A stretch of DNA of 25,325 nucleotides from a virus (lineage: Duplodnaviria > Caudoviricetes), in the IMG/VR virus record IMGVR_UViG_3300032239_000357, positions 1 to 25,325 of that record, one strand, 5' to 3'. The notes under the pieces are model-generated. The model searched no databases and was not told the DNA's origin. It worked only from the letters and a program-made list of their open reading frames with translations. A program made the position numbers and the translations under genes. Every line of letters starts with the position of its first letter. Position 1 is the first letter of the stretch. Positions 3,960 to 20,250 of this stretch are shown one piece after another.

Positions 3960-5690
3960 ATGGCTAAGCAAGTTATTAATATAGGAGCAGCTCCGAATGA
4001 CGGTACCGGCGACTATATCAGAGATTCGTTCAATAAGGTCAATCAGAACTTCACTGATATCTATACGAACTTCGCGACTACGAACGGTGCGAACTTTACA
4101 GGCCTTCTCTATACAGATAACTCGATAGTAGCTACGGGTCACGGATGGTTTGGCACATCAAATGCATCTGCATACACTGTCGGGTCTAACGTAATCGCTA
4201 ACTCTTCAGGTGTATTTACTACAGGAACAGTCAATGCTGTCTCATACACAGTCGGATCTAACGTAGTCGCTAACTCTTCTGGTATTCATACTACTGGTAT
4301 AGTCAACGCAGCTACTATAGTGACTTCAGGTGCAGCTAGTTTGAGTGGACTCGTAGTAGACGGTCTTGCCAACGTGTCGGCAAACGCATCGGTGAACGGT
4401 ACTCTGTACATAGCAGGTAATACTACATACGTCACTAATACGATGATAGCATCTAAGACCCTGATGCTTAAACTGGCTAACGGCACTGCCAGCGCAGCAG
4501 CTGCTAACGGCGCGGGTATAGTAATAGGCGGCACTGCTAATCTAATATATAATTCTTCTAACAACGCGTGGCAGTCAAACGTCAATATAGTACCTTCAAC
4601 TAATAATTTCGGCCTCGGTAATCCTACTTCTCTCTGGAACGTATATTCAAATAATATCTTTGCAAACTCGCTGAGTACGCCAGTAGGTAGCAATCAAAAT
4701 CTATATGTTAACCCCGATGGTGTTGGCGCTCTCGTCGTCGCCCAGGGAACCGGTGTGAGCATTCTTTCTACGACGCAGGCGACTACTCCTACTTCCGGCG
4801 CGCTCGTAGTGAGCGGTGGAATCGGTGTAGCTAACAACGCATACTTTGGAAACAACGTATATGTTACCGGTACAGTAAATGCAGTATCTTATACTCTGGG
4901 TGGTGGAATATTCGTAGCCAATACTACTTCACTAAGAGCTCAGGGCGCCGTAATTAATTCTACTGGAGCGTACATATCTGGTCTGGTAAACGCTACATCA
5001 GTTAACTCTGCATCATATACCGTTGGTTCTTCTATAACAGTAAACTCAGCGGGTTTCTATACTACGGGGACTGTAAACTCTGCATCGTACACCGTTGGTT
5101 CTGCATTTGTAGCTAACGCATCAGGCATGTATACTACAGGTAAAGCTAACGCTGCATCTTTAACCGTTGGAAATACTACATTTACGGTAGATGCAAACTC
5201 TGCGGGTATTTTTGCAACCGGTACTATAAATGCTGCGTCTCATACTGTTGGCTCTACATTTGTCGCTAACAACACTGTACTAAAAGCCAACGGTGTATCG
5301 GTAAACTCTACCGGCATATATGGTGGTGGGTTAGTAAGTGCGGCCGGCCTGAACATCAGTAGCGTAGTTCTTGCAGACTTTACCGGATTACAAGTAAGTA
5401 CAAACACATTTAATCTTGGGACTGCAGGGTCCGTTGGTAACAGTACCTATAATCAAATGTATACTCGACTTCCAAACGGATTTAAGATGGCATCGGGACA
5501 ACTTTATGTTAACAGCAGCGGCAATACAATAACATTTACTTCACCGTTTTCTTCAATATTCTCAATGCAGGCAACTACTTCCAATACTGTTCAATACGCC
5601 GCTGTTACTGCGTTGTCTACTACATCAGCTACTATTAAGACTACTCAGTCTACTAACATAATAGTAAATTGGTTAGCAATTGGTACGTAA
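3960..5690 (+). CDS. Baseplate-attached fibre protein with T4 gp9/gp10-type N-terminal domain, 24-aa repeat shaft and gp53-like C-terminal tail-fibre tip domain
   Basis: 576 aa. MAKQVINIGAAPNDGTGDYIRDSFNKVNQNFTDIY is the gp9/gp10 N-terminal motif. The middle has repeats of ANSSG(V/I)(F/Y)TTGTVNA.SYTVGS. The C-terminal YTRLPNGFKMASG...ITFTSPFS...VNWLAIG resembles the common phage tail-fibre C-terminal (gp53-like) domain. Confidence 0.75.
   Translation: MAKQVINIGAAPNDGTGDYIRDSFNKVNQNFTDIYTNFATTNGANFTGLLYTDNSIVATGHGWFGTSNASAYTVGSNVIANSSGVFTTGTVNAVSYTVGSNVVANSSGIHTTGIVNAATIVTSGAASLSGLVVDGLANVSANASVNGTLYIAGNTTYVTNTMIASKTLMLKLANGTASAAAANGAGIVIGGTANLIYNSSNNAWQSNVNIVPSTNNFGLGNPTSLWNVYSNNIFANSLSTPVGSNQNLYVNPDGVGALVVAQGTGVSILSTTQATTPTSGALVVSGGIGVANNAYFGNNVYVTGTVNAVSYTLGGGIFVANTTSLRAQGAVINSTGAYISGLVNATSVNSASYTVGSSITVNSAGFYTTGTVNSASYTVGSAFVANASGMYTTGKANAASLTVGNTTFTVDANSAGIFATGTINAASHTVGSTFVANNTVLKANGVSVNSTGIYGGGLVSAAGLNISSVVLADFTGLQVSTNTFNLGTAGSVGNSTYNQMYTRLPNGFKMASGQLYVNSSGNTITFTSPFSSIFSMQATTSNTVQYAAVTALSTTSATIKTTQSTNIIVNWLAIGT
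4173..4312 (+). repeat. 72-nt (24-aa) tandem coding repeat, cluster 1
   Basis: tacactgtcgggtctaacgtaatcgctaactcttcaggt at 4173 versus tacacagtcggatctaacgtagtcgctaactcttctggt at 4245. Confidence 0.85.
5004..5280 (+). repeat. 72-nt (24-aa) tandem coding repeat, cluster 2
   Basis: aactctgcatcatataccgttggttct at 5004 versus aactctgcatcgtacaccgttggttct at 5076, followed by further degenerate copies (NAASLTVG, NAASHTVG). Confidence 0.85.
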
Positions 5691-5713: not shown

Positions 5714-8700
5714 ATGGCTGTACTAACTATTCATCACTTTACTAGCACTGTCGAGTCATTCATCAAGAATGTAGTAGATTCTCGTGAGTCTTACTATATG
5801 TTTGTTGGAAAGCCTGATCCATGGCTGGATGCAGACGGTAACGTCGATGATACAGCAGTCATTGCAGCTAACGGCTCGGTTTATCAGCACGAGTCTACTA
5901 TCTATCAAGACATGACTTTTGGAAAGCTTATAGGAAATACCAACGTCTCTTATCTGATACCGAGATATGATTGGACTAATAATACGGTGTTTGATGCATA
6001 TAGTCAGTTTGATGGAGACCTCTACAGCAAGAGATTCTATGTAGTCAACGATAAGTTTCAGGTATATAAGTGCATCGATAACAACAACGGCGCCAACTCT
6101 ACCGTAAAGCCTTCCCTTACTTCTGAGTCAGGAACGTTCTATACTTCTGACGGCTATACCTGGAAGTACATGTACACTATCCAGAGCAGCTCAAATACTA
6201 ACTTTACTTCTAACACCTTTATTCCAGTCACTATAAATGCCAACGTCGCGGCCAACGCTGTAAACGGTACCATCGACGTCGTAAGAGTAAACAACAGCGG
6301 AACCAACTATAGGACTTACTATAGCGGCTATATCGTAAACTCAGTCAACAACTATACCGTTACTGTAGATTCCGGCGCTTCTTCCTACAGCGGCTTCTAC
6401 GTCGACTCTTCGATGTATCTGAAGTCCGGCTTTGGATCTGGTCAGATAAGAAAGATCAAGCTCTACGACGGCCTTAATAAACTAGTTACTCTCTATGAGC
6501 CGTTCACTACCTATGGTATATTCAACGTAAAGAATGTTACAGGAAGTATAAGTGTAGGCAACATACTAACTCAGAACATCGATAGCATAAACACACTGTA
6601 TAAGCAAGGTATCTTCCAGGTAGGCGATGTCGTACGTCAGTCAGATACCGGCGCTAATGGAACTATTATAGCAGCTAACTCTACAATCTTAAGAGTTATT
6701 AGAGGCAGTGGAGCTACGACTTTTAATACCACATACCCAATAGTTAATATGAATAATAGCGGTACTCTTAAGTCCGGCAGCGTTACAGTCAAGCCGTTCA
6801 CACAGCTGACTATAACTTCAAACACCGGCGCTTTTACTGTCGGCGAGTGGATATATCAGAACAACGGCGCTGCAAATACGGCAAACGGTCTTATATTCAG
6901 CGCAAACTCCAGCACGATAATGGTTGGTCTTGTCTCTGGTTCGTTTGTTAATACATATCAAGTCAAGGGTAACACATCTACTTCAAACGCAGTAGTATCT
7001 ACAGTCGGTAGCAACAATACTGGTAATAGCTACATCTACTCCGTACCGGGTTCTGGTACTACCTTCACTACAGACTTCAACCTTACAAGTAACTACTATA
7101 TTAGGATAGGAAGTAATCCAAATACTGCCGTAGCGAGAATAACTTCTGTTAACAGCACGGTCATTGGCGTATCTCAGCCGTTCACTAGTACCTACGTAGC
7201 AAACGCTTACTACTCTATACCAGACGCTACAGTAGCCAGCGGTATAACACTCATTTCAGCTAACGGCGTAGTCACCAACACAAATCTTAACGGCATTAAA
7301 CTCTTATATTCAAACGCTGCTTCTCTAGCATATAAGTTTATAGTCGGTGAGAGAGTAGACCAAGTCAATTCTTCAGATGTATATCAGGGCGCTAACGCTA
7401 TCGTATCGTTCTCTAACTCTAGTACTCTTATTCTATCTGACGTAAACGGAACATTTACTGGTGGCGGGACACTCTATGTGAGGGGTGAGTCTTCTTTACA
7501 AAAAGCAAATATCGACACTATATCCAGCTACCCGACTATAACTGTAAGTTCTCCTATAGGTACTTTCTATGAGGGTCAGAACATAATAGCTAGAAGCGCT
7601 TCTACCTTTGCTAGCCTTGGAAGCGCGAACGTAGTATCTTTTTATACTATACCTAACCAGCTAACAGAGTACGTGATATCACCTACTGTAGTGATAGACG
7701 GCGACGGTGATTCTACAGCTAAAGCGTATTCAGTAGTCAATGCTACTCCGGGGTCGGGCAACTCTATATCTGACGTAATAGTTATCGATCCAGGCATCGG
7801 CTACTCAGAAGCTAATGTCTACATAGTAGCTAATACATCCTATGGTTCTAACTCAGTACTAGAGCCGGTTATATCTCCGGCGCTAGGACACGGATCAAAT
7901 ACAGTCGCAGAGCTTGGAGCTAGATATGCAGGAATATCCATATCTTTCGATGTAGGTGCTATTGAGACCTATAAGTTTCCTCTATATGGCAAGTATAGAA
8001 GGATAGGCATAATTAAGAACCCACTATACTCCGACGTTACAGTCAACATGGACTCTTTTAGCAGGGCTAAGCTCGTAGTATCAAATACGAGCGGTACTGG
8101 ATTTACTGTCGGTGAGTACGTATATCAACCAAACACCGGAGCTATCGGTCTTATATCTTATAAGTCTGCATATAACATCCAACTCAGTAACGTTACTGGT
8201 ACTTTCTCAGCTAATGGAAAATACGCTAACGGCTCTACTTCAAATGACTATATCGTCGGGCTATCTTCTAATACTACTTCTAATGTCAGTACGTCTAACG
8301 TCATATACTTTTCATTAGCATCTAACGTCGAAGTAGTCTCTGAATCTACAGGCGGAGCGCACGCAAGAATAGTCGCTATAAACAGTAATACCCAAATGGA
8401 CTTGACAAATGTAGACGGTTCTTTCCAAGCAAACGATACTGTCTATGACCCAGTCACAAATGCCTACGCTAACGTCACATCTATCTATACTTCCAACGGT
8501 ACGGTAGACGTATCTACCGTCTTTGGACAGAGGTTTAACCAGAGTCTCAGATTCCCGATGTCGTCGAATACAGCGGCCTTCACTCAGTTCGAGTACGTTA
8601 GACAGCTCAATTCAAACGCAATAGGCAGGGTCATCAGCAACGCTAACGAGTTTGACCTCACCATAACCGGCGCGAACGGATCATTTACTGCCGGAGACGT

Positions 8701-9085
8701 AATAACTAATCAGACTACTGCGGCAAAGGCTATACTATTAACGGCAAATAGTAGCTATCTTAGGGCTACTTCAGCGAACGGTTCTTTCGCGCCTGGCCAG
8801 GTGATTATAAATAATCTAAATGTCGGTGCTACTATTGGTAATTCATATCCGGTATTGGTACTAGATGACGTGGCAGGGACGGGAAATTTCCAGAGCGGAG
8901 CGACATCGGCAAACGTTGTAGGTCAAACCAGCGGTGCTATTGGAAGATTCACCCTTTTGGGACAAGTAATAGTATACCCAGATCTGGTAAGAAATTCCGG
9001 AACTGTCATGTACCTAGAAAACATCGAACCATTTACAATATCGAATACTTCAAAAGAAAACATTCGATTAGTAATTAAGTTTTAG
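5714..9085 (+). CDS. gp8: Baseplate wedge subunit, T4 gp8-like, expanded by inserted beta-rich repeat modules
   Basis: 1123 aa. N-terminal YYMFVGKPDPW, IPRYDWT, FYVVN...VYKCIDNN, DGYTWKYMYTI, then ISP..GHGSN.V.ELGA, YRRIGIIKNP and C-terminal SGTVMYLENIEP.....ENIRLVIKF are gp8 family motifs. Confidence 0.88.
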   Translation: MAVLTIHHFTSTVESFIKNVVDSRESYYMFVGKPDPWLDADGNVDDTAVIAANGSVYQHESTIYQDMTFGKLIGNTNVSYLIPRYDWTNNTVFDAYSQFDGDLYSKRFYVVNDKFQVYKCIDNNNGANSTVKPSLTSESGTFYTSDGYTWKYMYTIQSSSNTNFTSNTFIPVTINANVAANAVNGTIDVVRVNNSGTNYRTYYSGYIVNSVNNYTVTVDSGASSYSGFYVDSSMYLKSGFGSGQIRKIKLYDGLNKLVTLYEPFTTYGIFNVKNVTGSISVGNILTQNIDSINTLYKQGIFQVGDVVRQSDTGANGTIIAANSTILRVIRGSGATTFNTTYPIVNMNNSGTLKSGSVTVKPFTQLTITSNTGAFTVGEWIYQNNGAANTANGLIFSANSSTIMVGLVSGSFVNTYQVKGNTSTSNAVVSTVGSNNTGNSYIYSVPGSGTTFTTDFNLTSNYYIRIGSNPNTAVARITSVNSTVIGVSQPFTSTYVANAYYSIPDATVASGITLISANGVVTNTNLNGIKLLYSNAASLAYKFIVGERVDQVNSSDVYQGANAIVSFSNSSTLILSDVNGTFTGGGTLYVRGESSLQKANIDTISSYPTITVSSPIGTFYEGQNIIARSASTFASLGSANVVSFYTIPNQLTEYVISPTVVIDGDGDSTAKAYSVVNATPGSGNSISDVIVIDPGIGYSEANVYIVANTSYGSNSVLEPVISPALGHGSNTVAELGARYAGISISFDVGAIETYKFPLYGKYRRIGIIKNPLYSDVTVNMDSFSRAKLVVSNTSGTGFTVGEYVYQPNTGAIGLISYKSAYNIQLSNVTGTFSANGKYANGSTSNDYIVGLSSNTTSNVSTSNVIYFSLASNVEVVSESTGGAHARIVAINSNTQMDLTNVDGSFQANDTVYDPVTNAYANVTSIYTSNGTVDVSTVFGQRFNQSLRFPMSSNTAAFTQFEYVRQLNSNAIGRVISNANEFDLTITGANGSFTAGDVITNQTTAAKAILLTANSSYLRATSANGSFAPGQVIINNLNVGATIGNSYPVLVLDDVAGTGNFQSGATSANVVGQTSGAIGRFTLLGQVIVYPDLVRNSGTVMYLENIEPFTISNTSKENIRLVIKF
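8806..8813 (+). promoter_or_regulatory. Possible T4-type late promoter (TATAAATA)
   Basis: Exact TATAAATA within the 3' part of gp8, about 290 nt upstream of the ATG at 9100. Confidence 0.35.
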
Positions 9086-9099
9086 TATAGAGGAAAATA

Positions 9100-12000
9100 A
9101 TGGCGACTCTTCAAACTAACCTCTCTAGCTCCCCATACTTTGATACCTTTAAAGAAACAGGAAACTATTATAGAGTACTCTATAAGCCTTCCGTTGCAGT
9201 ACAGGTACGCGAGCTCAACGAGGTTCAGTCTATATTCCAAGATCAGATCAACAAGCTTGGAAGGAGCGTCTTTAAAGAAGGCTCTATCATAGAAGGCTGT
9301 ACTTTTAGCTTTGATTATAATAGACCGTACGTAAAGGTGAGTGATAACTACAGCAACGGTACGGCGTTTACTATAACAGACTTTCAAGATAAGTTTGTAT
9401 TGAATAGAAACGGTCTCAAGGCTAAGATCGTAGCGACTAGGACTGGATTCTCGTCACAGGATCCAGACACAAATACGCTGTATCTAAAGTATAGAAACTC
9501 AGCGATATATGCTAACGGTATCCCTCAGACTACATTTGATTCCGGCGAAGATCTAAGTATAGTTACTTCAGCTAACGTGCTGATCGGTAATATATCAGTT
9601 CTTACAGTTACAAATGCTATAGGTGTATCTTATGCAGCTAGAGTCACTGACGGCGTAATATTCAAGAAAGGACTGATGCTGAACGTCAAGGGACAGTCAG
9701 TAACAGTACTTCCATACGCTAACAACCCCGACAATCTATCAGTCGGTTTTGAAGCAGTAGAGTCTATCGAGACCGCTTCTTCTAATTCTTCTCTCTATGA
9801 CAACGCGGCCGGATCACCAAACTATCTTGCACCCGGTGCAGACCGTCTTAGAATCGATCCTACTCTTGTAGTCAGGACTACCGACAGCGTCACTAATACC
9901 TCTACGTTCTTCTCTCTAGTTGATTTTAAGGGCGGTAACCCAGTAACTATCAAGCAAGATCCACAGGTAGAGATCTTAACAGACGAGATAGCTCGCCGCA
10001 CTTTTGAGACCAGCGGTGACTTCGTAGTCGCGCCTTTCATTATGACTACTGAGAACCTAGCAAATACTTCTGATCCTCAATATGCTACAAAGTTAAACCT
10101 CGTAGTAAGCAGGGGCCTCGGCTACGTTAAGGGGTACAGGATCGAGTATCTTAACAACAACGTTGCTAAGTTTAGAAAGTCTACAGACTATAAGTCTACT
10201 AGTGGTCAGATAGTCACTGCTAACTATGGAAACTACTTTTATGTAAATGAAGTATCTGGCCAGTTCTTTAGCAACTCATCGATCATATCGGTAGATCTAT
10301 ATAACGCTCCATTGACTTCAGTCTCAAGCGGCGCACTTCTATCTGTAAGTCCATCTGCTACTAATAAGATCGGTACCGGTTACATAAGAGGATTCTCTTA
10401 CGTCGACGGCACGATGGGCACTAAAGATGCTAGATACGCTCTGTATCTATTCAACTACGCCGACAATATGACTGGCGGCTTCAGCCCATCAGACATTAGG
10501 TCTATAGTCTATAACAACGGTGGTATCAAGGGTGTAGCGGACGTAGTTACACAGAAGCAGGGTACTCTAGCTACTAATACAGCCGTGCTTCAGCAGTCTA
10601 ACATCAACGTTATGATGTTCAACTTCGGTCAGAAGGCTATCAAGGCCGACGGCTTTAATAACACGAGCTTCGTCTATAGAAACAAGGTATCGTCTTCTGT
10701 TCTAACCAACGGCAACGCGGCTATAACTATACCGGCTGCAGGCGGTACTGGAACTGAGTCTCTTCCATACGGCGCAGGACAGCTCACTCAGGCGCTCCAA
10801 GAAGAGTTTCATATCGTAGCTACTTCGTCTAGCTATACAGCAAACCTAACAGGCAACGTTGCGGTATCTTCTTCGTCTAACGCAGTCACTGGCGCGTACG
10901 GCACTACATTCTTGACTTCTTTCTATCCAGGTGACTACATCTACGTTCAAGGAGATAGTCGTCTAATTACCGGCATAACCAACAATTCTTACCTGAATGT
11001 TCTTTCTCCGTTTTCTGCATCTAATGCGAACTCTAGGTATGCTAAGTCGTTCCCAGCAGGAGCGGTAGTTCCTATAAGTGATAGGCCAAACAGGTATATC
11101 TATATCAATAGTTCATCTGCTGCTACTATAGTTCTTGGTGAGACGCTCAACAGCTCGTTCAACATCGACGTTACTTATAATACAAGTAGAGCAGCCACAG
11201 TTCCTATAAAGAAGATAGTAAACCAAGACGTATACGTTAAGATCAGGCCTTCGAACAGCGCGGCTGGTCTGAGCGGTCCTTGGTCACTCGGACTGCCGGA
11301 CGTCTATCAGATAAGCAGCGTTTACATATCAAATGATGGATCGACATATTCTAGCTCAGGCACTGATTATAAGCAGTGGTTTACTCTAGACACTGGACAG
11401 AGAGACACATTCTACGGCCTAGCTAAGCTGCAGCAGTCTTCACCGTCAATACCTGGAATACAGATCAATGCTAATACAAGAATAACTGTAAAGTTAAGTC
11501 ACTTCACCTACGATCAGTCGTCTGGTCGTGGCTTCTTTACAGCTAACTCATATCCAATCGACGACGCTAATACTTCAAATACTACCGCTATAACTACGGC
11601 TGAGATCCCTGTATTTAGTTCATCATCAGGTAAGTCATATGATCTAAGGTCAGTGGTAGACTTTAGGCCGTTCGCAACGAATACTGCTACGAGTACTACT
11701 ACACTGGCTTCCGCGACTATCAATCCTTCTTCTACTGTAGCGTTTAGCGGGTCTCCGTATCTACCTGCTCCAGATTCAGACTTCCAGACTGACCTTCAAT
11801 ACTACCTTAGAAGAATAGATAGGGTCGCTATCGACACTACAGGTAATATAGTTATCACTGAAGGTGTACCGGTAGCAGCAAATCCAGGAGCTCCAGTAGA
11901 GCAGAGCGGTACTATGACGCTTGGTCTGGTATTTGTACCACCATATCCTACACTCTCGTCTGTAGAGGGAAAGACTTATAACAGGCCAGAATATACAGTA

Positions 12001-13983
12001 TCAACTCAGCCGATACAGAATCGTAGATATACGATGAAGAACATCGGTGAGATAGACAAGAGAATACAGAACATTGAGTACTACACCTCACTCAACTTAC
12101 TTGAGCAAGCAGCTTCTACTCTTCTAGTAAGAAGTACTTCTACCGGCCAGAACAGGTTCCAGAATGGTATATTCGCAGATCCTTTCAGAGACCATTCATA
12201 TGGTAACTTGGTAGATCCACAGTACTACATCGGAATAGACTCACAGGCTACTGAACTGAGGCCGGCACACGCGCAGTTTAGAAGCACTCTTGAGTATTCC
12301 CCTGCACTGAGTACTAACGTTAGAAAAAGAGGTGGTCTAGTACTTCTTGAACATACGACAAACAATTCTTTCATAACTCAGGGCTTTGCTTCTAAGTATA
12401 GAAACTGCGTAGAAGGAAACATATTCCACTACAACGGCACAGTGGTGTTGAGCCCATTCGGCACTGTCACACCTGACATCAATGCCCCTGTTACAGTATT
12501 GAACAATACGCTAGACCTCACTCAGAACTGGCAGACGCTTGACAAGGCGTGGGGAACTCAGTGGGGCAACTGGACTGAGATACCAGATACTGAAAAGGCT
12601 ACAAAGCTTTTAGTTGCCGGTTCTAAGAAAGAGACGGGAAACTTCGACAGCGACAGCGGTCTAGAAGATAAGACTACTACGCAGACTCTCGAGACTATTA
12701 GTAAACAGTATCAACAGGCCGGCACTCAATTAAATTCTAGTGTGATAGATAAGTCGACATTTAACCTCGGTACTTACGTAACTGACGTATCTATCCAGCC
12801 GTGGCTTAAGTCTTCTGTAATTAAGCTGTACATAAGGGGCATGAAGCCAAAGACCAGGTTGTACGTCTACCTAGACAACAAGCCTATGGCAGTTAACATC
12901 GCCCCTTACGCAAACGCCAGTTTTATAAAAGACGCTAACTATACTTCTACGAGCAGTAGCAGTGGATTCAATGGAGACGCTCTATACAGTGATTCGTACG
13001 GAAGGGCATGGGCTACTATGTATATTCCAGCTCATGATCCAGACGTACCTAATTCTGGATTCCAGGCTAGAGAGCTCCCAGTACTCATCACCGACGTATC
13101 AGACCTAGCGCAGGGTCTAGACGCGTCTACGACTTCTGCTACAGCAGTATTTGTCGGATCTGGTCTTACAGTCCAAAAAGGACAGTCTATCCTTTCAGTA
13201 AAAGACGTTGATCTCTCATACGATACAGTAGTCAGTAAGCCAAAAACAGTCGACTATCTTGGATATACTCAGACTGTCACGATTACAGACCATCCTACAA
13301 GCTCTTCTTGCGGCTGTGGCGGATGCTTTACTTACGACACTATAGTCGAGATGGCAGACGGAAGCACTAAGAAAATAATCGACGTGAAGATCGGAGATCG
13401 CGTATATAATAGAGACAAGACTTCTATAAACACCGTTAAGTTTATAGAGAAGACCGTCGATAATAGGTTTGAGAAGCTCTACAGCCCGACGCGCGCGCTT
13501 AAGCCGTTCGCTACTGTAAATCATCCTATATACATCGACGGTGTTCTATCAAGTGTAGACCCAGAAATGAACTACAACTTCTATCCATGGCTCGGTAGAA
13601 ACAATAAGATAGAAAATGCAGTACTAGAAGACGCTTCTGGCGACATGGTATATAATCTATGGGTAGACGGAGACGGCACGTATACAGTCAACGGCTACGG
13701 CACTACTTCTATAATCGGCGACGGCGCCGCTGTGAGGCAGGCTGTAGAGTATGGATACTTCACTGAGGAAGAGGCTGTAAATATAGTTCTTGGATACTCC
13801 GAATCAGGTCCGGCTACTTCTTATGGTTCTTATATCATTATTAATGCTCTTGCTATGCTTGACTTTAAGCCGCTTACTTGGCTGGCAGCAAAGGCCGTTA
13901 AGCGTGAAGGTAGCGGTAAGAAGATAATAGACACCATCTTTAATGTTACTGGAAGTATAGCTCTTCTATTCAATAGACAATGA
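9100..13983 (+). CDS. VrlC/DUF4815-like large virion structural protein (N-terminal part) with C-terminal Hint domain
   Basis: 1627 aa. SPYFD.F....NYYRVLYKPS.AVQVRELNEVQSIFQDQI, APGADRL, ARRTFETSGDF.V.PF, LDTGQRDTFY, DFRP, YYLRRIDR, NRRYTMKNIG.I.KRI.NIEYYTSL.LLE and NRFQNGIFADPF are typical of VrlC/DUF4815 phage proteins. SD-like AGAGGA upstream. Confidence 0.85.
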   Translation: MATLQTNLSSSPYFDTFKETGNYYRVLYKPSVAVQVRELNEVQSIFQDQINKLGRSVFKEGSIIEGCTFSFDYNRPYVKVSDNYSNGTAFTITDFQDKFVLNRNGLKAKIVATRTGFSSQDPDTNTLYLKYRNSAIYANGIPQTTFDSGEDLSIVTSANVLIGNISVLTVTNAIGVSYAARVTDGVIFKKGLMLNVKGQSVTVLPYANNPDNLSVGFEAVESIETASSNSSLYDNAAGSPNYLAPGADRLRIDPTLVVRTTDSVTNTSTFFSLVDFKGGNPVTIKQDPQVEILTDEIARRTFETSGDFVVAPFIMTTENLANTSDPQYATKLNLVVSRGLGYVKGYRIEYLNNNVAKFRKSTDYKSTSGQIVTANYGNYFYVNEVSGQFFSNSSIISVDLYNAPLTSVSSGALLSVSPSATNKIGTGYIRGFSYVDGTMGTKDARYALYLFNYADNMTGGFSPSDIRSIVYNNGGIKGVADVVTQKQGTLATNTAVLQQSNINVMMFNFGQKAIKADGFNNTSFVYRNKVSSSVLTNGNAAITIPAAGGTGTESLPYGAGQLTQALQEEFHIVATSSSYTANLTGNVAVSSSSNAVTGAYGTTFLTSFYPGDYIYVQGDSRLITGITNNSYLNVLSPFSASNANSRYAKSFPAGAVVPISDRPNRYIYINSSSAATIVLGETLNSSFNIDVTYNTSRAATVPIKKIVNQDVYVKIRPSNSAAGLSGPWSLGLPDVYQISSVYISNDGSTYSSSGTDYKQWFTLDTGQRDTFYGLAKLQQSSPSIPGIQINANTRITVKLSHFTYDQSSGRGFFTANSYPIDDANTSNTTAITTAEIPVFSSSSGKSYDLRSVVDFRPFATNTATSTTTLASATINPSSTVAFSGSPYLPAPDSDFQTDLQYYLRRIDRVAIDTTGNIVITEGVPVAANPGAPVEQSGTMTLGLVFVPPYPTLSSVEGKTYNRPEYTVSTQPIQNRRYTMKNIGEIDKRIQNIEYYTSLNLLEQAASTLLVRSTSTGQNRFQNGIFADPFRDHSYGNLVDPQYYIGIDSQATELRPAHAQFRSTLEYSPALSTNVRKRGGLVLLEHTTNNSFITQGFASKYRNCVEGNIFHYNGTVVLSPFGTVTPDINAPVTVLNNTLDLTQNWQTLDKAWGTQWGNWTEIPDTEKATKLLVAGSKKETGNFDSDSGLEDKTTTQTLETISKQYQQAGTQLNSSVIDKSTFNLGTYVTDVSIQPWLKSSVIKLYIRGMKPKTRLYVYLDNKPMAVNIAPYANASFIKDANYTSTSSSSGFNGDALYSDSYGRAWATMYIPAHDPDVPNSGFQARELPVLITDVSDLAQGLDASTTSATAVFVGSGLTVQKGQSILSVKDVDLSYDTVVSKPKTVDYLGYTQTVTITDHPTSSSCGCGGCFTYDTIVEMADGSTKKIIDVKIGDRVYNRDKTSINTVKFIEKTVDNRFEKLYSPTRALKPFATVNHPIYIDGVLSSVDPEMNYNFYPWLGRNNKIENAVLEDASGDMVYNLWVDGDGTYTVNGYGTTSIIGDGAAVRQAVEYGYFTEEEAVNIVLGYSESGPATSYGSYIIINALAMLDFKPLTWLAAKAVKREGSGKKIIDTIFNVTGSIALLFNRQ
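13324..13710 (+). other. Hint (Hedgehog/intein) autoprocessing domain within the VrlC-like ORF, with no homing endonuclease
   Basis: Block A GG|CFTYDTIVEMADGSTKKIIDVKIGDRV (Cys at 13324-13326, residue 1409), block B TxxH (FATVNHP, 13513-13524), block F VYNLWVDGDGTYTVNG. It ends ..NGYGTTS, with no terminal His-Asn. Confidence 0.88.
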
Positions 13984-13991
13984 AATAAATA
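13984..13991 (+). promoter_or_regulatory. Possible late promoter (AATAAATA, 1 mismatch to TATAAATA)
   Basis: In the 34-nt intergenic gap, followed by SD-like GAGGG and the ATG at 14018. Confidence 0.5.
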
Positions 13992-14017: not shown

Positions 14018-16525
14018 ATGAAGCCAATTGGACAGACGTTCTTTGTTAATAAAGATGGCTCCGCACAGTCTAAGTTTACAGTGCCGGGTGTATATATTAC
14101 GAGAGTAGACGTATACTTTAAGTCAATAAGTGATAACGCCGGAGTAAACTTAGAGATAAGGACCACCGACAACGGCGCTCCGACCTCGAATCGTCTTCCG
14201 TTTGCTCTAAAGTCTCTCGATCTAGATGATAAACACGCAAACGGATCACTGATCATAATAGCATCTGACGATGCCAGCAAACCTACTATATTTGAATTCG
14301 ATACTCCGATATTCGTTGAGAACCTCAAGTCCTACGCCATCGTAGTCTACCCAGACGGCGGTAACGACGAGTATAATATATGGACCGCTGAGATAGGTCA
14401 GAACGACGTTAATACCGGCAATCCTATATTCACAAACAACGACACCGGCGATCTATATCTATCGTCGAATGATAGGTCATGGCTTCCTGTTAATAATGAA
14501 GACATGAAGTTTAACATCTACGTCGCTGACTTCACTGCTTCTTCCGGTGAGGCCGTATTCACGACTCCGCACGAAGATTGGATCATCTATAAAGATACTA
14601 TCGGCAAATTCGCCATGAGAGAGAAAGTAGTTTTCTCAAACAACTACTTTAACATAGCGGTCCTTGGAGTTACAGGAATTTCTGGCACTTATAATACCGG
14701 TGATACGGTATGGCAGAACAATGGTTCTGCGAATGTCGTAGGTATTATATACTCAGCCAATACTACTGAGTGGAAGTTGTCAAACACTACCGGGTCATTC
14801 GTAGTCACTAGCGGTAGTAGCCCGAAGCTGTTCAACGCCACTACCGGCGGAAATACTTCAGTGACTGCAGTATCTCAGAATGTATCCGTTACATCGTCTT
14901 CGAACACGGTCTCACTTCCTGACTCCAGCATATTTACAGTCGGTAACGTTCTGTTCTTCACTAAGGCTAATGGAGCGAATGCGCAGGTCGTTCAAGTCAC
15001 TGCCAAGCCTTCTAATACGACGATCAACGTCAATAATGCTATCAACTATACAGACTCGAGCGCGCAGGTCGGAAGAGTCATGACTGACGGAGATCTCTAT
15101 GGCGGATACTCCGGAGCTATAGAATATAATAATCTGCAGTACGGTGTTCTCGACGACATGTCAGCGAACAGCTCGGTCAACCTGTCGAATATGGGCGGTT
15201 ATAAGATAATCGGAACGCAGACCGGTGCAGTAGCTACCCTTGCTGCCGGTTCTTATGATCCAGTCTATAACAGTCTAACACCACACTTCTATACTTCAGA
15301 GCCGGGAAATACTTCTATATCTTGGTACTTCAGAGGCTTTGCTAACAACGCTTCCTATACAGAAGACTCCGATTATACTCCTGTAGTTCCGCACACTACG
15401 AACGAGATGGTCGATATACCAAGAGTGGCGATGTCTAGGAGTAGTGAGTATGCAAGGCTGCCTATCGGTAGAAAGGGAGATCACTCTCTACTACTAAAAG
15501 GAGAGCTTCTCAGCTCTAACAACTTCATATCTCCGGTCATCTCAGACGTCAGAAGTGACATCACCTATACGTTCAACATAGTTCCAAGAGACTATGAGCT
15601 TAATGGATTCCACCTCACTGTCAGCAACGTCGGTACCATGACTACAGGCGATACTATTTCTCAGGCGTCTTATGGTAATACGACTACCGGCATCATCCAA
15701 GAAGCTAACTCGAGCTACATAAGGGTGGCCAACGTCAACGGCCGATTCATAAGCAACACCGCCTTTACAAATATGAACAACTCAAATACCGGCTTCGTAG
15801 AAGTAGCTACGAAGTATACTGAGTCAGCCAACAACGGCTACTTCAAGGTATCTAGGTACATATCAAAGAATATAAAGCTGGCGGATGTTCAAGACTCAGA
15901 AGACATGAGACTGTACATGTCTGCTTACAGGCCGGCAAATACTAACTTCAACGTATACGCTAAGATCCTGAATACTCTAGACCATACGGCATTTACGTCT
16001 AAGGACTGGACACAGCTCAGTGAGATCTCTCCGACTTCTCTACTCAGCAGTAGATCAAACCAGACAGACATGGTAGAGCTCATCTATGGATTCCCGCAGA
16101 GTAAGTATCTCTACACACAGAATACTGTGACTAGCAATACGTCTAATACGGTCTATATCGATTCTACATTCGGTCTGGCAAACAACGACTTTGTATACCT
16201 TCTGCCTAGTAACACCATATCTAGTACGACGAATCAGTTCAACGTCAGGCAGATAGTATACGTTGTAAACGCGACATCGTTCGTAGTAGACCGCCCGCCT
16301 TCGTTCAACACGTCTAACGGCGTGGTAGGTTACATACCTGACATCGACTCTACTCAGTCTGCTTTCTTGTACGATAGAAATAGTAACATTGTCAGATATT
16401 CTACAAACAACGATGTCGTATATGATACCTATATTCAGTTTGCGATTAAGATCATTCCGACAGCTGACTCAACTGCAGTTATACCAAGGGCAGGTGACGT
16501 CAGGGTCTTAGCACTTCAGGTATAA
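14018..16525 (+). CDS. Virion structural protein corresponding to the C-terminal part of VrlC/DUF4815-like proteins
   Basis: 835 aa. It begins MKPIGQTFFV...GVYITRVDVYFKS...LEIRTTDNGAPT...DDASKPTIFEFDTPIFV...YAIVV...YNIWTAEIGQ...G.LYLSSN.RSW.P...EDMKFNIY.ADF, the 'DPLAQTF' region normally found in the C-terminal half of VrlC-like proteins. It ends SRYISK.I.L...FAIKI.......IPR..DVRVLAL. Confidence 0.8.
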   Translation: MKPIGQTFFVNKDGSAQSKFTVPGVYITRVDVYFKSISDNAGVNLEIRTTDNGAPTSNRLPFALKSLDLDDKHANGSLIIIASDDASKPTIFEFDTPIFVENLKSYAIVVYPDGGNDEYNIWTAEIGQNDVNTGNPIFTNNDTGDLYLSSNDRSWLPVNNEDMKFNIYVADFTASSGEAVFTTPHEDWIIYKDTIGKFAMREKVVFSNNYFNIAVLGVTGISGTYNTGDTVWQNNGSANVVGIIYSANTTEWKLSNTTGSFVVTSGSSPKLFNATTGGNTSVTAVSQNVSVTSSSNTVSLPDSSIFTVGNVLFFTKANGANAQVVQVTAKPSNTTINVNNAINYTDSSAQVGRVMTDGDLYGGYSGAIEYNNLQYGVLDDMSANSSVNLSNMGGYKIIGTQTGAVATLAAGSYDPVYNSLTPHFYTSEPGNTSISWYFRGFANNASYTEDSDYTPVVPHTTNEMVDIPRVAMSRSSEYARLPIGRKGDHSLLLKGELLSSNNFISPVISDVRSDITYTFNIVPRDYELNGFHLTVSNVGTMTTGDTISQASYGNTTTGIIQEANSSYIRVANVNGRFISNTAFTNMNNSNTGFVEVATKYTESANNGYFKVSRYISKNIKLADVQDSEDMRLYMSAYRPANTNFNVYAKILNTLDHTAFTSKDWTQLSEISPTSLLSSRSNQTDMVELIYGFPQSKYLYTQNTVTSNTSNTVYIDSTFGLANNDFVYLLPSNTISSTTNQFNVRQIVYVVNATSFVVDRPPSFNTSNGVVGYIPDIDSTQSAFLYDRNSNIVRYSTNNDVVYDTYIQFAIKIIPTADSTAVIPRAGDVRVLALQV

Positions 16526-16749: not shown

Positions 16750-19700
16750 ATGTCGATAACGCTCTCACAATTAAGTAATACTCAGACCTTTGGTACCTGG
16801 CTATCTAGGACCAACGATATACTAAGCGTTATATCTTCTAACGTCGTTACTGCCGACGCTACTGCCGGCGGGTCAAAGACTACCGGCAACGCCTACGTCA
16901 TCGGTATGTTCGGCGCTAATATTCTATACACCACGACGATAACAGCCGGTAACATCTCTACCAATGGCTCGCTACTTACTATCACGTCTAATACTCAGAT
17001 CAACGCTACAGCCACCATCGGTAACTCAACCGTCAACGTTCAGATCGGATGGCTTGCTGGGAACTCGAGTATTCAGCAGAGCTTCGCGAATGCAAATAAC
17101 TTCGTTCAGAACATAATACAAAACAGTAATACCGGCACTTCTGCTTCGGGTGACTTCGTCGTGTATAGCGACGACACTTCTTATAACTCATTCATCGACA
17201 TGGGTATAAGCAGCTCCAATTGGTCTAATACTACGTGGACAATAAGCGGCGGCAATGACGGTTACCTATACGTAGGTAACGGCGCGCTCGCTATCGGTAC
17301 AAATACTTCTGGAAAGCAGATCGTATTCTTCACTAGTGGATCGCTTGCAGCTAACGAGAGAATGAGGATCGACGGCTCCGGCAACGTAGGTATCGGCAAC
17401 ACTGCTCCGAATGCAAAGCTCGCAGTTACAGGTACTGCAAACGTATCTGCCAACGTCTACATCGGCGGTGCTATCACAGCTGCTAATCTGTTATCAGTGA
17501 CAGGTAACGTAAGCATCGCCAATACGCTGTCGATAGTAGGAAACGCTACTTTCTCTAACTCAGTAGCTATAACCGGTAGTACGACCCACTCAAATACTAT
17601 AACGGTTACCGGTAATACAGTACTATCGAACACACTCGCAGTAACAGGTAATACCACGCTCTCGAACACGCTCGCAGTAACTGGTAGCGCGACACTGTCA
17701 AACACGCTCGCGGTCACCGGCAGCGTTACTCTATCAAATACATTAAACGTAGTCGGAGCAGCCAACCTTCAGTCTTCAGCCAACGTCGGTGGTACTCTCG
17801 GCGTAGTATTCGCTACGACGCTCTCTAATACCCTCAACGTAGTTGGAGCAGCCAACCTTCAGTCTTCAGCCAACGTCGCTGGAACACTCGGTGTCGTCGG
17901 TGCAGTTACTCTATCAAACAACATGCTTATATCCGGCAACGTCGGAATAAGCAACAACTCGTTCCTTGATAATCTCAGAGTAGAGGGTACAGTATCTGCT
18001 CTTACTTCAATAAGGGTAAGTAACTCAAGCGCCAACGCTGTAGTGGCAAACCTATCAGGCATCTATTCTTTCTCTAACTCGATAGGAAATGCGCTAGGAA
18101 ATACTACGGCTCGCTGGATACTAAACGCTAATACTATAAATGCCTCCGGCCTCATAACAGGTACGGCCGGCATCGACATAACAGGCACCGCTAACGCCTC
18201 GACTTCAATGAACGTCGGCGCTAACGTAAACCTAAGCACGTCCAGCATCAACGTCGGTAACAGCACCCAGAACACAGTAGTAACTACTAACCAGCTCGTG
18301 CTGTCCGACAGCACTACGAATACCACTATTACGGGTTCCAGCGTCGCCCTCGGCGGTAGCTCTTATACTGCAGCCCCTTCTCTATGGCTAGCCAATAGTA
18401 TATCGAATACAGTAGTCAGCGCGGCCGCGATAGCCATCGGTAACTCAACGGTCAACAGTATAACTAACTCTTCTTCGTTTGTGATCGCCGGTAATACCAC
18501 TACTCAGGCTACCGCTACTCTGTCAGCTAACACGCTCGTTATAGGTAACAGTACAGTAACTGCAGCGCCTTCTATCACCCTGCAGAACTCTACTACCAAC
18601 TCAGTGCTTACGAGTCTCTCGCTTAATCTCGGCGCCGGCGCGGCGGTAGCTAATACTCTGGGTGTCTACACTACCGGTACAGTAAACGCCTCGTCGCTGA
18701 CGGTAGGTACAGCTACAGTAGCTAACGCACTCGGCGTCTATACTACTACTTCTAATGCCACTACTTTCCAAGCCGGTGCGACCGGTACTGGAACTGGAGG
18801 CCTGTTAGCTAACGCCACCATCGTATATGTCGGTAACAACACTATCAATACGCAGATCAGTTCTGCCGGTCTGAACGTCAATGGATTCGCGATAGTCAAC
18901 ACGACTAACATAGTAGCGAACGGCTTTACTGCTAACTCACTGGGAGCTTACGTCTCCGGTCTAGTCAACGCGGCATCATATAACGTCGGCACCGTCTTTA
19001 CTGCCAACGCGACTATGGCCAATATGGTTTCTCTCGTAGTATCGACCAACACCGCTACTATAGGCACTGCGGCCTATCACGTATCGAATGGAAACTTCGG
19101 CGTCGGCAACTCAACTCCGACAGACAAGACGCGTGTCGAGGGTACGTTCAGCGTGCTTACAGCGATCGCTGTAAGCAATTCAACAGCAAATTCAATCACT
19201 ATCAATGCGAGCGGTATAACTACTAATACAAACGCGAGTATAAACATCGGAGTCGTCGGTACAGCAAACGGTCTGGCTACTAACACATCTCAGATCACGC
19301 TCGGCAATACTACTGTAAATACCGTAATTACGAGCTCTAATATAACTACTAACAGCGCTTATTTCAATAACCTTACGGTCAGCGGCTCTCTTCTCGGTAC
19401 GTATACGTTTGGTGGAAGTATAGTACCTGGCGCTAACAACACGTATGTGCTCGGTAATACTAGTAGCGTGTTTTCTAACGTATTTGTTACAAATACATAT
19501 ACCAACTCAATATCTGCTTTCGGCTCTACAGTAACTATTAACTCTAACGTCACCATGACTGGAAGTTACCTCAGCATCGGTGGTGTAAGTGAGGTATACT
19601 CTAATAGCTTCTCGTTCTCTGGTACTACTGCCGGCGTGGCGAATACAGTCGATACGATGAGTGCGACGGTGTATAGGTCGGCTGAGTATCTAGTACAGAT

Positions 19701-19923
19701 GTCTGATATACCTTCAGTCGGTACTAACACCTACCAGATCTCCAAGCTGCTGGTCGTGCACGACGGCACCTCGGCCTACGTCACTGAGTTCGGATCAATG
19801 GCTACTTCAGCCAATCTAGTAACCTACGCCGCCGACATCAATACCGGTAACGTGCGCCTTCGCGGTACAGCTACTTCGAATACAGTCACAGTCAAGTTCA
19901 TAAGAAAAGCATTAAAGATATAA
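16750..19923 (+). CDS. Long tail-fibre-like virion protein (trimeric beta-helix/beta-spiral shaft)
   Basis: 1057 aa, very rich in N/S/T/G/A/V. N-terminal TQTFGTWLSRTND anchor motif, fibre motif ERMRIDGSGNVGIGNTAPNAKLAVTG, 6/12-aa repeats (VTGNTTLSNTLA), and a C-terminal DT.....YRSAEYLVQ....YQISKLLVVHDGT.AYVTEFG domain seen in T4-like cyanophage fibre/structural proteins. Confidence 0.78.
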   Translation: MSITLSQLSNTQTFGTWLSRTNDILSVISSNVVTADATAGGSKTTGNAYVIGMFGANILYTTTITAGNISTNGSLLTITSNTQINATATIGNSTVNVQIGWLAGNSSIQQSFANANNFVQNIIQNSNTGTSASGDFVVYSDDTSYNSFIDMGISSSNWSNTTWTISGGNDGYLYVGNGALAIGTNTSGKQIVFFTSGSLAANERMRIDGSGNVGIGNTAPNAKLAVTGTANVSANVYIGGAITAANLLSVTGNVSIANTLSIVGNATFSNSVAITGSTTHSNTITVTGNTVLSNTLAVTGNTTLSNTLAVTGSATLSNTLAVTGSVTLSNTLNVVGAANLQSSANVGGTLGVVFATTLSNTLNVVGAANLQSSANVAGTLGVVGAVTLSNNMLISGNVGISNNSFLDNLRVEGTVSALTSIRVSNSSANAVVANLSGIYSFSNSIGNALGNTTARWILNANTINASGLITGTAGIDITGTANASTSMNVGANVNLSTSSINVGNSTQNTVVTTNQLVLSDSTTNTTITGSSVALGGSSYTAAPSLWLANSISNTVVSAAAIAIGNSTVNSITNSSSFVIAGNTTTQATATLSANTLVIGNSTVTAAPSITLQNSTTNSVLTSLSLNLGAGAAVANTLGVYTTGTVNASSLTVGTATVANALGVYTTTSNATTFQAGATGTGTGGLLANATIVYVGNNTINTQISSAGLNVNGFAIVNTTNIVANGFTANSLGAYVSGLVNAASYNVGTVFTANATMANMVSLVVSTNTATIGTAAYHVSNGNFGVGNSTPTDKTRVEGTFSVLTAIAVSNSTANSITINASGITTNTNASINIGVVGTANGLATNTSQITLGNTTVNTVITSSNITTNSAYFNNLTVSGSLLGTYTFGGSIVPGANNTYVLGNTSSVFSNVFVTNTYTNSISAFGSTVTINSNVTMTGSYLSIGGVSEVYSNSFSFSGTTAGVANTVDTMSATVYRSAEYLVQMSDIPSVGTNTYQISKLLVVHDGTSAYVTEFGSMATSANLVTYAADINTGNVRLRGTATSNTVTVKFIRKALKI
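17560..17920 (+). repeat. 36-nt (12-aa) tandem repeats followed by a 90-nt (30-aa) tandem duplication
   Basis: Repeated (A/V)VTG(N/S).TLSNTL units. The 34-nt stretch ggagcagccaaccttcagtcttcagccaacgtcg is identical at 17755 and 17845. Confidence 0.9.
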
Positions 19924-19926
19924 CAG

Positions 19927-20250
19927 ATGTCTTATAAGAAGAATCTAGTAATAGATCAGGGTACCACGTTCTCGGCAGACGTCACGGCAAAAGACGCGTC
20001 TAGTAACGAGATCATGCTCGACGGCTATACAGCCAACGCGCAGATGAGAAAGTGGTACGGTTCCAGCAACTCAGTGACCTTCTCTACGGCCGTCTCTGGT
20101 AACAGCGTTACCCTGTCGCTGAGCGTGGCCAACACCACGGCGATCGAGGCGGGAAGGTACGTCTACGACGTCGTAGTCACCGACGGCGCGAACAATAAGA
20201 TCAGAATAGTAGAAGGAATAGCCACGGTCACTCCAAGAGTCACTGTCTAA
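19927..20250 (+). CDS. Conserved T4-like phage virion protein (single Ig-like/beta-sandwich domain, possible fibre adaptor)
   Basis: 107 aa. NLVIDQGTTFS...L.GYTA.AQMRK.Y.S...F......G.VTLSL....T.AIEAGRYVYDVVV......RIVEGIATVTPRVT is a pattern widespread in T4-like phage tail regions. Confidence 0.75.
   Translation: MSYKKNLVIDQGTTFSADVTAKDASSNEIMLDGYTANAQMRKWYGSSNSVTFSTAVSGNSVTLSLSVANTTAIEAGRYVYDVVVTDGANNKIRIVEGIATVTPRVTV

What the first reader, a model, noticed from the sequence alone, without database searches (positions are those of the whole stretch)
13300..13983. Hedgehog-like Hint module (cleavage-competent, splicing-incompetent) plus helical tail on a giant virion protein: possible self-catalysed covalent modification of the baseplate
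Seen in sequence: the VrlC-like protein ends ...SSSCGCGG|CF-Hint. Cys1 and the block-B TxxH are intact, but the domain ends NGYGTTS instead of the intein HN|C/S/T. It then continues ~90 aa with amphipathic/hydrophobic helices (FTEEEAVNIVLGY...YIIINALAMLDFKPLTWLAAKAV...IIDTIFNVTGSIALLFNRQ). Established: Hedgehog Hog domains have the same layout (Hint plus a C-terminal sterol-recognition region), form a Gly-Cys thioester and transfer the N-terminal protein onto a nucleophile; inteins need the terminal Asn to splice. Inference: this phage protein self-cleaves at Gly1408|Cys1409, and the helical tail may select a nucleophile (lipid, small molecule or partner protein) that becomes attached to the new C-terminus. 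That would be a Hedgehog-type processing system in a phage virion.
Basis: partly seen in the sequence, partly recalled or inferred. Interest (0 to 1): 0.85.

Follow-up and report, generated by a model that had tools for sequence, protein, structure and literature searches.

The report
Self-cutting end-cap on phage baseplate protein
This phage encodes its large baseplate protein as two genes, and the first piece ends in a Hedgehog/intein-type domain with a helical tail that likely cuts itself off during assembly; the same conserved, apparently undescribed end-cap sits on many unrelated proteins of uncultured phages.

Summary
Observation confirmed: Gly1408|Cys1409, block-B TxxH, a complete Hint fold and TTS|I in place of HN|C/S/T, followed by a folded five-helix tail. 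The 220-residue Hint+tail module is a conserved phage family (225 of 277 proteins fetched, always C-terminal) on many unrelated carriers, including gp5-like spikes. Gly-1 is not conserved (66 of 225). Among 60 relatives with the same split, the site carries this module (7), a Hint-less cysteine-led helical cap (6), tandem Hints (4), a self-cleaving S74 chaperone (2) or no recognisable cap (41). Best reading (0.55): a self-removing assembly cap, released by thioester hydrolysis or thiolysis. Hedgehog-style transfer onto a tail-selected nucleophile stays open (0.25): an invariant Glu42 and Ser/Thr129 may lie where Hedgehog's D46 and C143 do, but the register is unresolved. It is not a Hog, Vint, intein or BIL member by the tests run. 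Ten literature searches found no description. The scan found this system before in other genomes. Cleavage itself is untested.

The parts
9100..13323 (+). VrlC/DUF4815 baseplate protein, N-terminal piece (aa 1-1408); the predicted mature product
   Evidence: PF16075 E 2.5e-53; phrog_358 positions 4-1408; homolog of PDB 9EUF chain 0
13297..13323 (+). Flexible linker ending CGCGG; a CxC motif precedes both Hint+tail and Hint-less caps in close relatives
   Evidence: CxC in 7 of 7 Hint+tail, 6 of 6 IICT-cap and 11 of 41 cap-less loci
13324..13710 (+). Hint domain, module residues 1-129 (aa 1409-1537)
   Evidence: AlphaFold model and fold searches
13324..13326 (+). Cys1409, predicted nucleophile of the N-S acyl shift
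   Evidence: 225 of 225 modules
13447..13449 (+). Glu1450 (module E42), conserved in tail-bearing Hints only; candidate counterpart of Hedgehog D46 (inferred, register unresolved)
   Evidence: 210 of 225 against 8 of 73 HN-ending Hints; Pfam range ends
13513..13524 (+). Block B TxxH (T1472, H1475)
   Evidence: His 225 of 225, Thr/Ser 225 of 225
13582..13596 (+). YPWLG motif typical of the tail-bearing family
   Evidence: Trp 225 of 225 against 7 of 73 HN-ending Hints
13702..13713 (+). TTS|I replacing xHN|C/S/T; Ser1537 is Ser or Thr in 215 of 225, the next residue is Ile/Leu/Val in 216 of 225
13711..13983 (+). Five-helix amphipathic, basic tail (90 aa) and stop codon
13985..13991 (+). ATAAATA between the two VrlC genes, like a T4 late promoter (consensus recalled; function inferred)
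   Evidence: present within 60 nt of the C-half start in 23 of 48 relatives; the window-wide count of 5 is not above chance
14018..16525 (+). VrlC C-terminal piece (835 aa), a separate gene starting MKPIGQTF
   Evidence: phrog_358 positions 1423-2055; both ORFs align in order to single intact VrlC proteins of phages RHph_I1_18 and phiM19

Best explanation
The N-terminal piece of a split phage baseplate protein ends in a conserved Hint domain with a helical tail, which likely cuts itself off at Gly1408-Cys1409 and likely serves as a temporary assembly cap. Steps: (shown) the VrlC gene is split in a variable, low-complexity linker and the module caps the first piece; (established for Hint domains, inferred here) Cys1409, helped by Thr1472 and His1475, turns the preceding peptide bond into a thioester; (shown by sequence) splicing cannot follow, as the terminal Asn and the +1 nucleophile are missing; (inferred) water or a cellular thiol resolves the thioester, leaving VrlC-N ending at Gly1408, which then assembles non-covalently with the separately encoded C-terminal piece; (inferred, weakest) the tail packs on the Hint, gates the timing of cleavage and may hold the unassembled protein at the inner membrane or shield it, a role like that of the S74 intramolecular chaperone found at the same site in relatives.
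For: Cys1 and block-B His in 225 of 225 modules, all C-terminal. Hint fold with pLDDT 96.7. Residue -1 takes 15 different amino acids, and carriers fall into 35 loose similarity clusters, including VrlC, gp5-like hub/spike (7 of 7 tested hit phrog_430/694/1922), Gly_rich_2, subtilase and Ig-repeat proteins: a portable, substrate-indifferent cap. Carrier labels change 29 times on the module tree (minimum 11, shuffles >=58; VrlC versus other 16 changes): long residence with repeated swaps. At the same VrlC break, 60 split loci carry Hint+tail (7), an IICT helical cap (6), tandem Hints (4 near-identical contigs), Peptidase_S74 (2 near-identical contigs, 37.9 bits against cut-off 22) or no recognisable cap (41). 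Hint+tail and IICT caps are intermixed among close relatives (L095 sister to L094/L097, local support 0.94). S74 domains detach by autoproteolysis and aid folding of tail proteins (PMC7824862, passages). Tail under purifying selection in 7 of 7 closest pairs.
Against: No cleavage was shown for any member, and no cultured phage record holds the module. Most split relatives (41 of 60) need no cap, so a chaperone role cannot be essential for VrlC in general. The IICT cap has no Hint, so if it is the same device it must be removed otherwise or stay on. Family-specific invariant residues (E42, W89, W113, D117, S/T129) are more than simple hydrolysis needs and could serve a second catalytic step. 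The S74 and tandem-Hint cases are each one lineage.
Confidence: 0.55

Rival explanations
1. Hedgehog-type ligation: the tail selects a nucleophile (a membrane lipid, small molecule or protein amine) and the Hint transfers the carrier's new C-terminus onto it, possibly through an ester on Ser129.
For: Same layout as Hog domains. The Vint structure 8R2C aligns past the Hint into the first tail helices (Z 11.2, rmsd 3.7, 146 aligned, model 1-170). E42 is in 210 of 225 tail-bearing against 8 of 73 HN-ending Hints; two Pfam range ends put it on PF01079 column 58, which would be Hedgehog position 46 if the profile has no indel (not checked). The last aligned pair with 1AT0 is 130 to 401, which would place S129 on C400/C143. 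D46 and C143 drive the second step in Hedgehog (PMC12054796, PMC9163320, passages). Tail end is basic (median +7) and amphipathic; 34 of 222 carriers end in a hydrophobic stretch before the Cys.
Against: Gly-1 not conserved (66 of 225). PMC12054796 equates C143 with the intein +1 residue, which here is Ile/Leu/Val (216 of 225), and there is no Cys at either place. A divergent subfamily has Lys at 42 (P0255, P0273). The tail alone has no clear structural match. Most relatives with the same split have no ligating device, and an S74 domain can stand in its place. Carriers are too diverse for one obvious adduct.
Confidence: 0.25
2. Triggered cap: the module stays on the virion protein, the tail blocks the active site, and cleavage happens only later (on a host ligand, membrane or redox change), or the helical tail itself is the functional part, as in the Hint-less IICT caps.
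For: Hint-less IICT caps replace the module on at least three carrier types. Tail and IICT cap are weakly similar in register from their first residues (HH score 21.6, E 0.0015, against at most 17.3 in 60 column shuffles; probability only 17%), and P0265 joins an HN-ending Hint to a Cys-less IICT-type cap (E 2e-10). The site is an exposed variable linker.
Against: Homology of tail and IICT cap is weak (probability 2% with shallow, 17% with deeper profiles). Catalytic residues are invariant. No virion data.
Confidence: 0.1
3. Neutral or selfish passenger: a self-removing module that spreads by recombination into tolerant C-termini and does nothing for the phage.
For: Patchy presence at the VrlC break (7 of 60), repeated carrier swaps, tandem Hint arrays upstream in 17 of 225, one copy in each of 5 of 5 contigs searched.
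Against: No homing endonuclease or mobility gene in the module; the 90-aa tail is conserved and under purifying selection, which a bare self-removing Hint would not need unless the tail is required for cleavage; carriers that could be named are mostly virion-type proteins.
Confidence: 0.07
4. Rejoining device: the thioester is attacked by the N-terminal amine or Lys2 of the separately made VrlC-C, restoring one chain.
For: The module sits exactly at the break; type A BILs can ligate through a free amine (PMC4031507, passage); the C-half starts MK in the closest group.
Against: 41 of 60 split loci have no cap; cultured phage Cr30 has a split VrlC without one; most carriers are not split VrlC; at a second break about 170 aa upstream the C-half starts MPY, without Lys.
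Confidence: 0.03

Closest known systems
Hedgehog Hog domain (Hint + sterol/adduct recognition region; PF01079, PDB 1AT0)
   Same: Hint fold (Z 11.4), Cys1, TxxH, no terminal Asn, a helical C-terminal extension, Gly before Cys in this protein; appended to varied N-terminal domains.
   Different: Below Pfam cut-off and only over positions 4-46 of 213; Gly-1 not conserved; no Cys143 counterpart (Ser or Ile); D46 counterpart unresolved; carrier is a cytoplasmically assembled phage baseplate protein, not a secreted signal; tail has five helices, where a helix-loop-helix is proposed for SRR (PMC9163320).
Vint domain (PF14623, PDB 8R2C; VWA-Vint proteins, PMC2362128)
   Same: Splicing-incompetent Hint with a C-terminal extension; structural alignment runs to model residue 170; nearest named Atlas clusters are Vint-type (leads only).
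   Different: PF14623 14.9-18.2 bits against cut-off 27; no VWA or Vwaint domain; longer helical tail; phage virion context.
Bacterial intein-like domains (type A and B; Tetrahymena BIL2 6TMM, C. thermocellum 2LWY)
   Same: Best structural matches (Z 14.2 and 12.2); stand-alone Hints on variable, exposed proteins; HN-ending type A-like Hints occur in tandem upstream of this module in some carriers.
   Different: No His-Asn end (type A); no PF13403 match; obligatory conserved helical tail; nearly absent from prokaryote genomes (3 loci in 185,579 species genomes, two on contigs under 4 kb).
Peptidase S74 intramolecular chaperone (PF13884)
   Same: C-terminal, self-detaching domain on phage tail proteins; found at the very same VrlC break in L120/L121.
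   Different: Unrelated sequence and chemistry (Ser-Lys against Cys-His); chaperone activity of the Hint+tail module is untested.
CFI-box-CTERM (NCBIfam NF041770) and the IICT cap seen here
   Same: Cys-led helical C-terminal domains after Gly-rich linkers; the IICT cap alternates with this module on the same carriers.
   Different: Neither the tail nor four IICT caps match NF041770; tail-IICT homology is weak; the tail has no leading Cys of its own.

Membership tests
Hint superfamily | Hint beta-fold | tested here: met
   (27 chains with Z>=8; the 27 top rows are all Hint-type)
Hint superfamily | Cys/Ser at position 1 and block-B TxxH | tested here: met
Hint superfamily | N-terminal autocleavage | not testable with these tools
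   needs expression and assay
Canonical intein | Terminal (His)-Asn/Gln/Asp | tested here: not met
   position 129 is Ser 195, Thr 20, Asn 5 of 225
Canonical intein | Cys/Ser/Thr at +1 and an in-frame C-extein from the host protein | tested here: not met
   +1 is Ile; the rest of VrlC is a separate ORF
Type A BIL | C-terminal His-Asn (PMC4031507) | tested here: not met
   TS here; upstream tandem Hints of some relatives do meet it
Type B BIL | Match to PF13403 Hint_2 | tested here: not met
   no hit at E<=0.1
Hedgehog Hog domain | Hint followed by a C-terminal helical region | tested here: met
Hedgehog Hog domain | PF01079 at or above the curated cut-off over Hint and SRR | tested here: not met
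   25.1 against 29.7 bits, profile 4-46 of 213
Hedgehog Hog domain | Conserved Gly at -1 | tested here: not met
   present in this protein, but 66 of 225 in the family
Hedgehog Hog domain | General base D46 | tested here: inconclusive
   E42 is the candidate, from Pfam range ends only; no residue-level superposition available
Hedgehog Hog domain | Second nucleophile C143 | tested here: inconclusive
   no Cys; Ser129 or Ile130 depending on register
Hedgehog Hog domain | Tail homologous to SRR/ARR | tested here: inconclusive
   Atlas feature score 0.84 to a Hedgehog cluster is a lead only; PMC9163320 (2022) says a high-resolution SRR structure was missing
Hedgehog Hog domain | Transfer to a sterol or other adduct | not testable with these tools
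   needs mass spectrometry
Vint | PF14623 above cut-off | tested here: not met
   14.9-18.2 against 27 bits
Vint | N-terminal VWA and Vwaint domains | tested here: not met
   carrier is DUF4815
Peptidase S74 chaperone | PF13884 sequence match | tested here: not met
   none for the window module; met for L120 and L121
CFI-box-CTERM | NF041770 match | tested here: not met
   no hit at E<=1 for the tail or at E<=5 for 4 of 4 IICT caps
VrlC/DUF4815 baseplate protein (carrier) | PF16075/phrog_358 match in a gp6-gp7-gp8 wedge cluster | tested here: met

The most novel reading that the evidence does not exclude
A portable, virus-encoded Hedgehog-type ligase: the Hint+tail cap uses Cys1, a D46-like Glu42 and a C143-like Ser129 to attach a tail-selected molecule (most plausibly a bacterial membrane lipid) to the C-terminus of whichever virion protein carries it, and with the Hint-less IICT caps it forms an unstudied C-terminal tagging system of phages. 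It would be the first Hedgehog-style adduct chemistry outside eukaryotes.
Probability: 0.2. Interest if true: 0.9.

Novelty: new variant of a known kind. Interest (0 to 1): 0.6.

Why it matters
Self-removing caps on phage tail proteins are known for the S74 chaperone. This shows a second, chemically unrelated and widespread family at the same kind of site, swapped among baseplate tripod, spike and fibre-like proteins, together with a set of alternative caps at one hot spot. It is a compact 220-residue Hint with a well-predicted accessory domain, so it is a tractable model for how such domains steer thioester chemistry (the Hedgehog SRR has resisted structural work, PMC9163320) and a possible C-terminal labelling tool that tolerates almost any -1 residue. 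If an adduct is found, phage particles would carry a self-installed modification.

Tried and rejected
Homotrimer prediction of the module: no answer (score 0.00, mark 0.42, controls not folded); not evidence either way. Tail-only fold searches: best Z 5.3 in 48,161 chains and no BFVD match at E<=0.001, the level of common helical arrangements; this shows no new fold. Tail profile against PDB sequences: best E 0.037, an aminoglycoside adenylyltransferase, treated as chance. Tail profile over 5,794 ORFs of the first loci found no Hint-less copy. CFI-box NF041770 (accession recalled, confirmed): 0 of 5 carrier contigs. Residue-level alignment to Hedgehog 1AT0 could not be obtained (only residues 1-32 matched). 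Ubiquitin-like 'GG|C' reading rejected: Gly-1 in 66 of 225. Transmembrane reading of the tail rejected on hydropathy. Cultured phages: one weak 35-residue match with the window module and none with a divergent one. The C-terminal domain of Stenotrophomonas phage DLP_6 VrlC-N looks Hint-like by eye (Cys after a Gly run, HN near the end) but hit no Pfam, NCBIfam or in-house profile, so it is not counted. A single-protein scan with VrlC-C found nothing. Sequencing runs: no RNA holder listed. ATAAATA is not enriched window-wide (5 seen, 6.1 expected). Literature searches without a description of this module; some searches were for background. The library lacks most subscription journals, the paper on the Vint structure did not come up, and no supplementary files were read.
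Full report
Context. The window is the baseplate cluster of a T4-like myophage: gp6-like wedge (1-1824), wedge subunit (1824-3959), gp9/10-like (3960-5690), gp8-like (5714-9085), then ORF 9100-13983 and ORF 14018-16525. The two last ORFs match consecutive parts of one family, phrog_358 (positions 4-1408 and 1423-2055), and align in order to single intact VrlC proteins of cultured phages RHph_I1_18 and phiM19. So the VrlC gene is split and the Hint module sits at the break. Both halves match one solved protein, PDB 9EUF chain 0, DUF4815/ORF65. I take this to be the trimeric tripod protein of the phage 812 baseplate described in PMC13433997 (passages); the link between the PDB label and the paper's gp119 is my inference. 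VrlC is an abundant virion protein tied to double-ringed baseplates (PMC4621102, PMC7029224; passages).

Observation. The 219-aa module folds with pLDDT 96.7 into a Hint (1-129) and five helices. It matches Tetrahymena BIL2 (Z 14.2, rmsd 2.4, 126 aligned), gp41-1 intein (Z 12.5), Hedgehog 1AT0 (Z 11.4, rmsd 2.6, 111 aligned) and Vint 8R2C (Z 11.2, rmsd 3.7, 146 aligned, reaching model residue 170). TTS|I corresponds to xHN|+1 of inteins; relatives with VHN before the same tail start show the derivation.

The family. Three protein searches gave 277 proteins; 225 of 277 hold the whole module, each within 173-273 residues of the C-terminus. These are cluster representatives found by likeness to the query, so they are not independent and conservation is partly by selection. 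Cys1, His67 and Trp89 are invariant; position 129 is Ser 195, Thr 20, Asn 5; position 130 is Ile/Leu/Val in 216; residue -1 is Gly in only 66. The 205 carriers with 80 or more upstream residues fall into 35 loose clusters, the largest chained together. On a FastTree of 107 modules (62 of 225 unlabelled and near-duplicates left out, labels rough) carrier labels change 29 times, against a minimum of 11 and at least 58 in 300 shuffles. The module is in 75 viral and 216 metagenome loci but only 3 loci of 185,579 prokaryote genomes, once in each of 5 of 5 contigs searched. The tail has pN below pS in 7 of 7 closest pairs (uncorrected, pS near saturation), a basic end and amphipathic helices, and is not a membrane span.

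The break is a hot spot for caps. I collected 77 loci by the start of the VrlC C-half, not by the Hint (the pattern favours split forms). 17 are fused (one of them judged on a short contig end) and 60 split. The N-half ends in Hint+tail in 7, a Hint-less helical cap starting IICT in 6, tandem Hints in 4 (near-identical), and neither in 43; 2 of these 43 (near-identical) end in Peptidase_S74 above cut-off, and 41 end in low-complexity Pro/Gly/acidic tails. Among the window's closest relatives the two helical caps follow the same CxC linker and are intermixed on the VrlC-C tree (39 rows; the tandem-Hint locus and short or redundant rows dropped). A second break about 170 residues upstream carries the same module in other phages. 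The IICT cap is itself common (148 viral loci), replaces the module on other carriers too and occurs in cultured Synechococcus phage SynMITS9220M01 beside fibre genes. Its likeness to the tail is weak: probability 17%, E 0.0015, above 60 of 60 column shuffles; 2% with the shallow profile.

Mechanism. Shown: anatomy, conservation, split, alternative caps. Established for Hint domains: Cys1 with TxxH forms a thioester; Hedgehog adds D46 and C143 for transfer to cholesterol (PMC9163320, PMC12054796; passages); BILs mostly cleave (PMC4031507; passage). Inferred: cleavage at Gly1408-Cys1409 without splicing. What resolves the thioester is open. For simple release: indifference to residue -1 and to the carrier, absence of any cap in 41 of 60 split relatives, and an S74 chaperone at the same place (S74 role from PMC7824862, passages). 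For ligation: E42 (210 of 225 against 8 of 73 HN-ending Hints) and S/T129 may occupy the places of D46 and C143, judged only from range ends. Against that, the paper equates C143 with the +1 residue, which is aliphatic here, and a divergent branch has Lys at 42. I put 0.55 on a self-removing assembly cap, 0.25 on ligation, 0.10 on a retained or triggered cap, 0.07 on a passenger and 0.03 on rejoining the halves.

Comparison with known systems. It is built like a Hog or Vint domain and sits where an S74 chaperone can sit, but it fails the membership tests for intein, type A and B BIL, Hog, Vint, S74 and CFI-box-CTERM by profile score or defining residues; the Hedgehog second-step residues and SRR homology are inconclusive. 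Hog and Vint definitions are from PMC2362128 (passages), whose main text has no occurrence of 'phage'.

Novelty. Seven topic searches found no description of this module or of Hint caps on VrlC; the library lacks most subscription journals and I read no supplements. Public annotation does label some uncultured phage proteins 'Hint domain containing'. The scan noted the same system in other genomes, which is not independent support. Verdict: a real, conserved, apparently undescribed variant of Hint autoprocessing on phage virion proteins; interest 0.6; Hedgehog-style adduct chemistry 0.2 likely and worth 0.9 if true.

Noticed in passing
window 13985-13991: ATAAATA, like a T4 late promoter (consensus recalled), between the VrlC halves; present before the C-half start in 23 of 48 relatives, which suggests separate expression of the C-half.
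   Followed up: partly
P0002-P0005, P0008; L017:3464-10663, L038, L043, L105:2300-3979: Tandem arrays of HN-ending Hints joined by K, KG or KGG spacers upstream of a terminal cap (73 Hints in 25 proteins); they could splice by the amine route of type A BILs.
   Followed up: partly
L090:3482-3976 and L249-L328: IICT-led helical cap without a Hint, 148 viral loci, no Pfam or NCBIfam match, on many carriers, often after Cys-rich NCNC repeats; also in Synechococcus phage SynMITS9220M01 (QJT70041.1).
   Followed up: partly
L120:3600-3995, L121:3600-3995: Peptidase S74 intramolecular chaperone at the end of the VrlC N-half.
   Followed up: yes
L028:10654-11070, L041:10666-11140, L053:10648-11235, L054, L003:5732-13148: VrlC region in three pieces in some phages: an extra 120-180 aa ORF between cap and C-half, or a further break upstream of the capped piece.
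   Followed up: partly
P0078-P0132 (e.g. L005:813-1937); P0042, P0053, P0055: A 370-aa family and some 1170-aa carriers end in a Gly run plus a 12-20 residue hydrophobic stretch just before the Cys; cleavage would expose a hydrophobic C-terminal tip.
   Followed up: no
P0166, P0186, P0188, P0189, P0194, P0211, P0230: The same cap on gp5-like baseplate hub/spike proteins.
   Followed up: partly
L081:6402-6929 (phage DLP_6, AMQ65897.1): Split VrlC of a cultured phage ends in a Gly run, Cys and a domain with HN near its end; Hint-like by eye only.
   Followed up: partly
P0265, P0273, P0274: Proteins that seem to start with signal peptides (by eye) carry related Hints with or without helical tails, so cellular secreted proteins may share the system.
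   Followed up: no
window 21094-25325: A protein of more than 1410 aa built of long internal repeats, cut by the window end, with no Pfam match; likely a virion or fibre protein.
   Followed up: no
window 16750-19923, 19927-20250: Repeat-rich 1057-aa fibre-like protein followed by an LtfC-like small protein (PF23926 below cut-off, phrog_3304).
   Followed up: no
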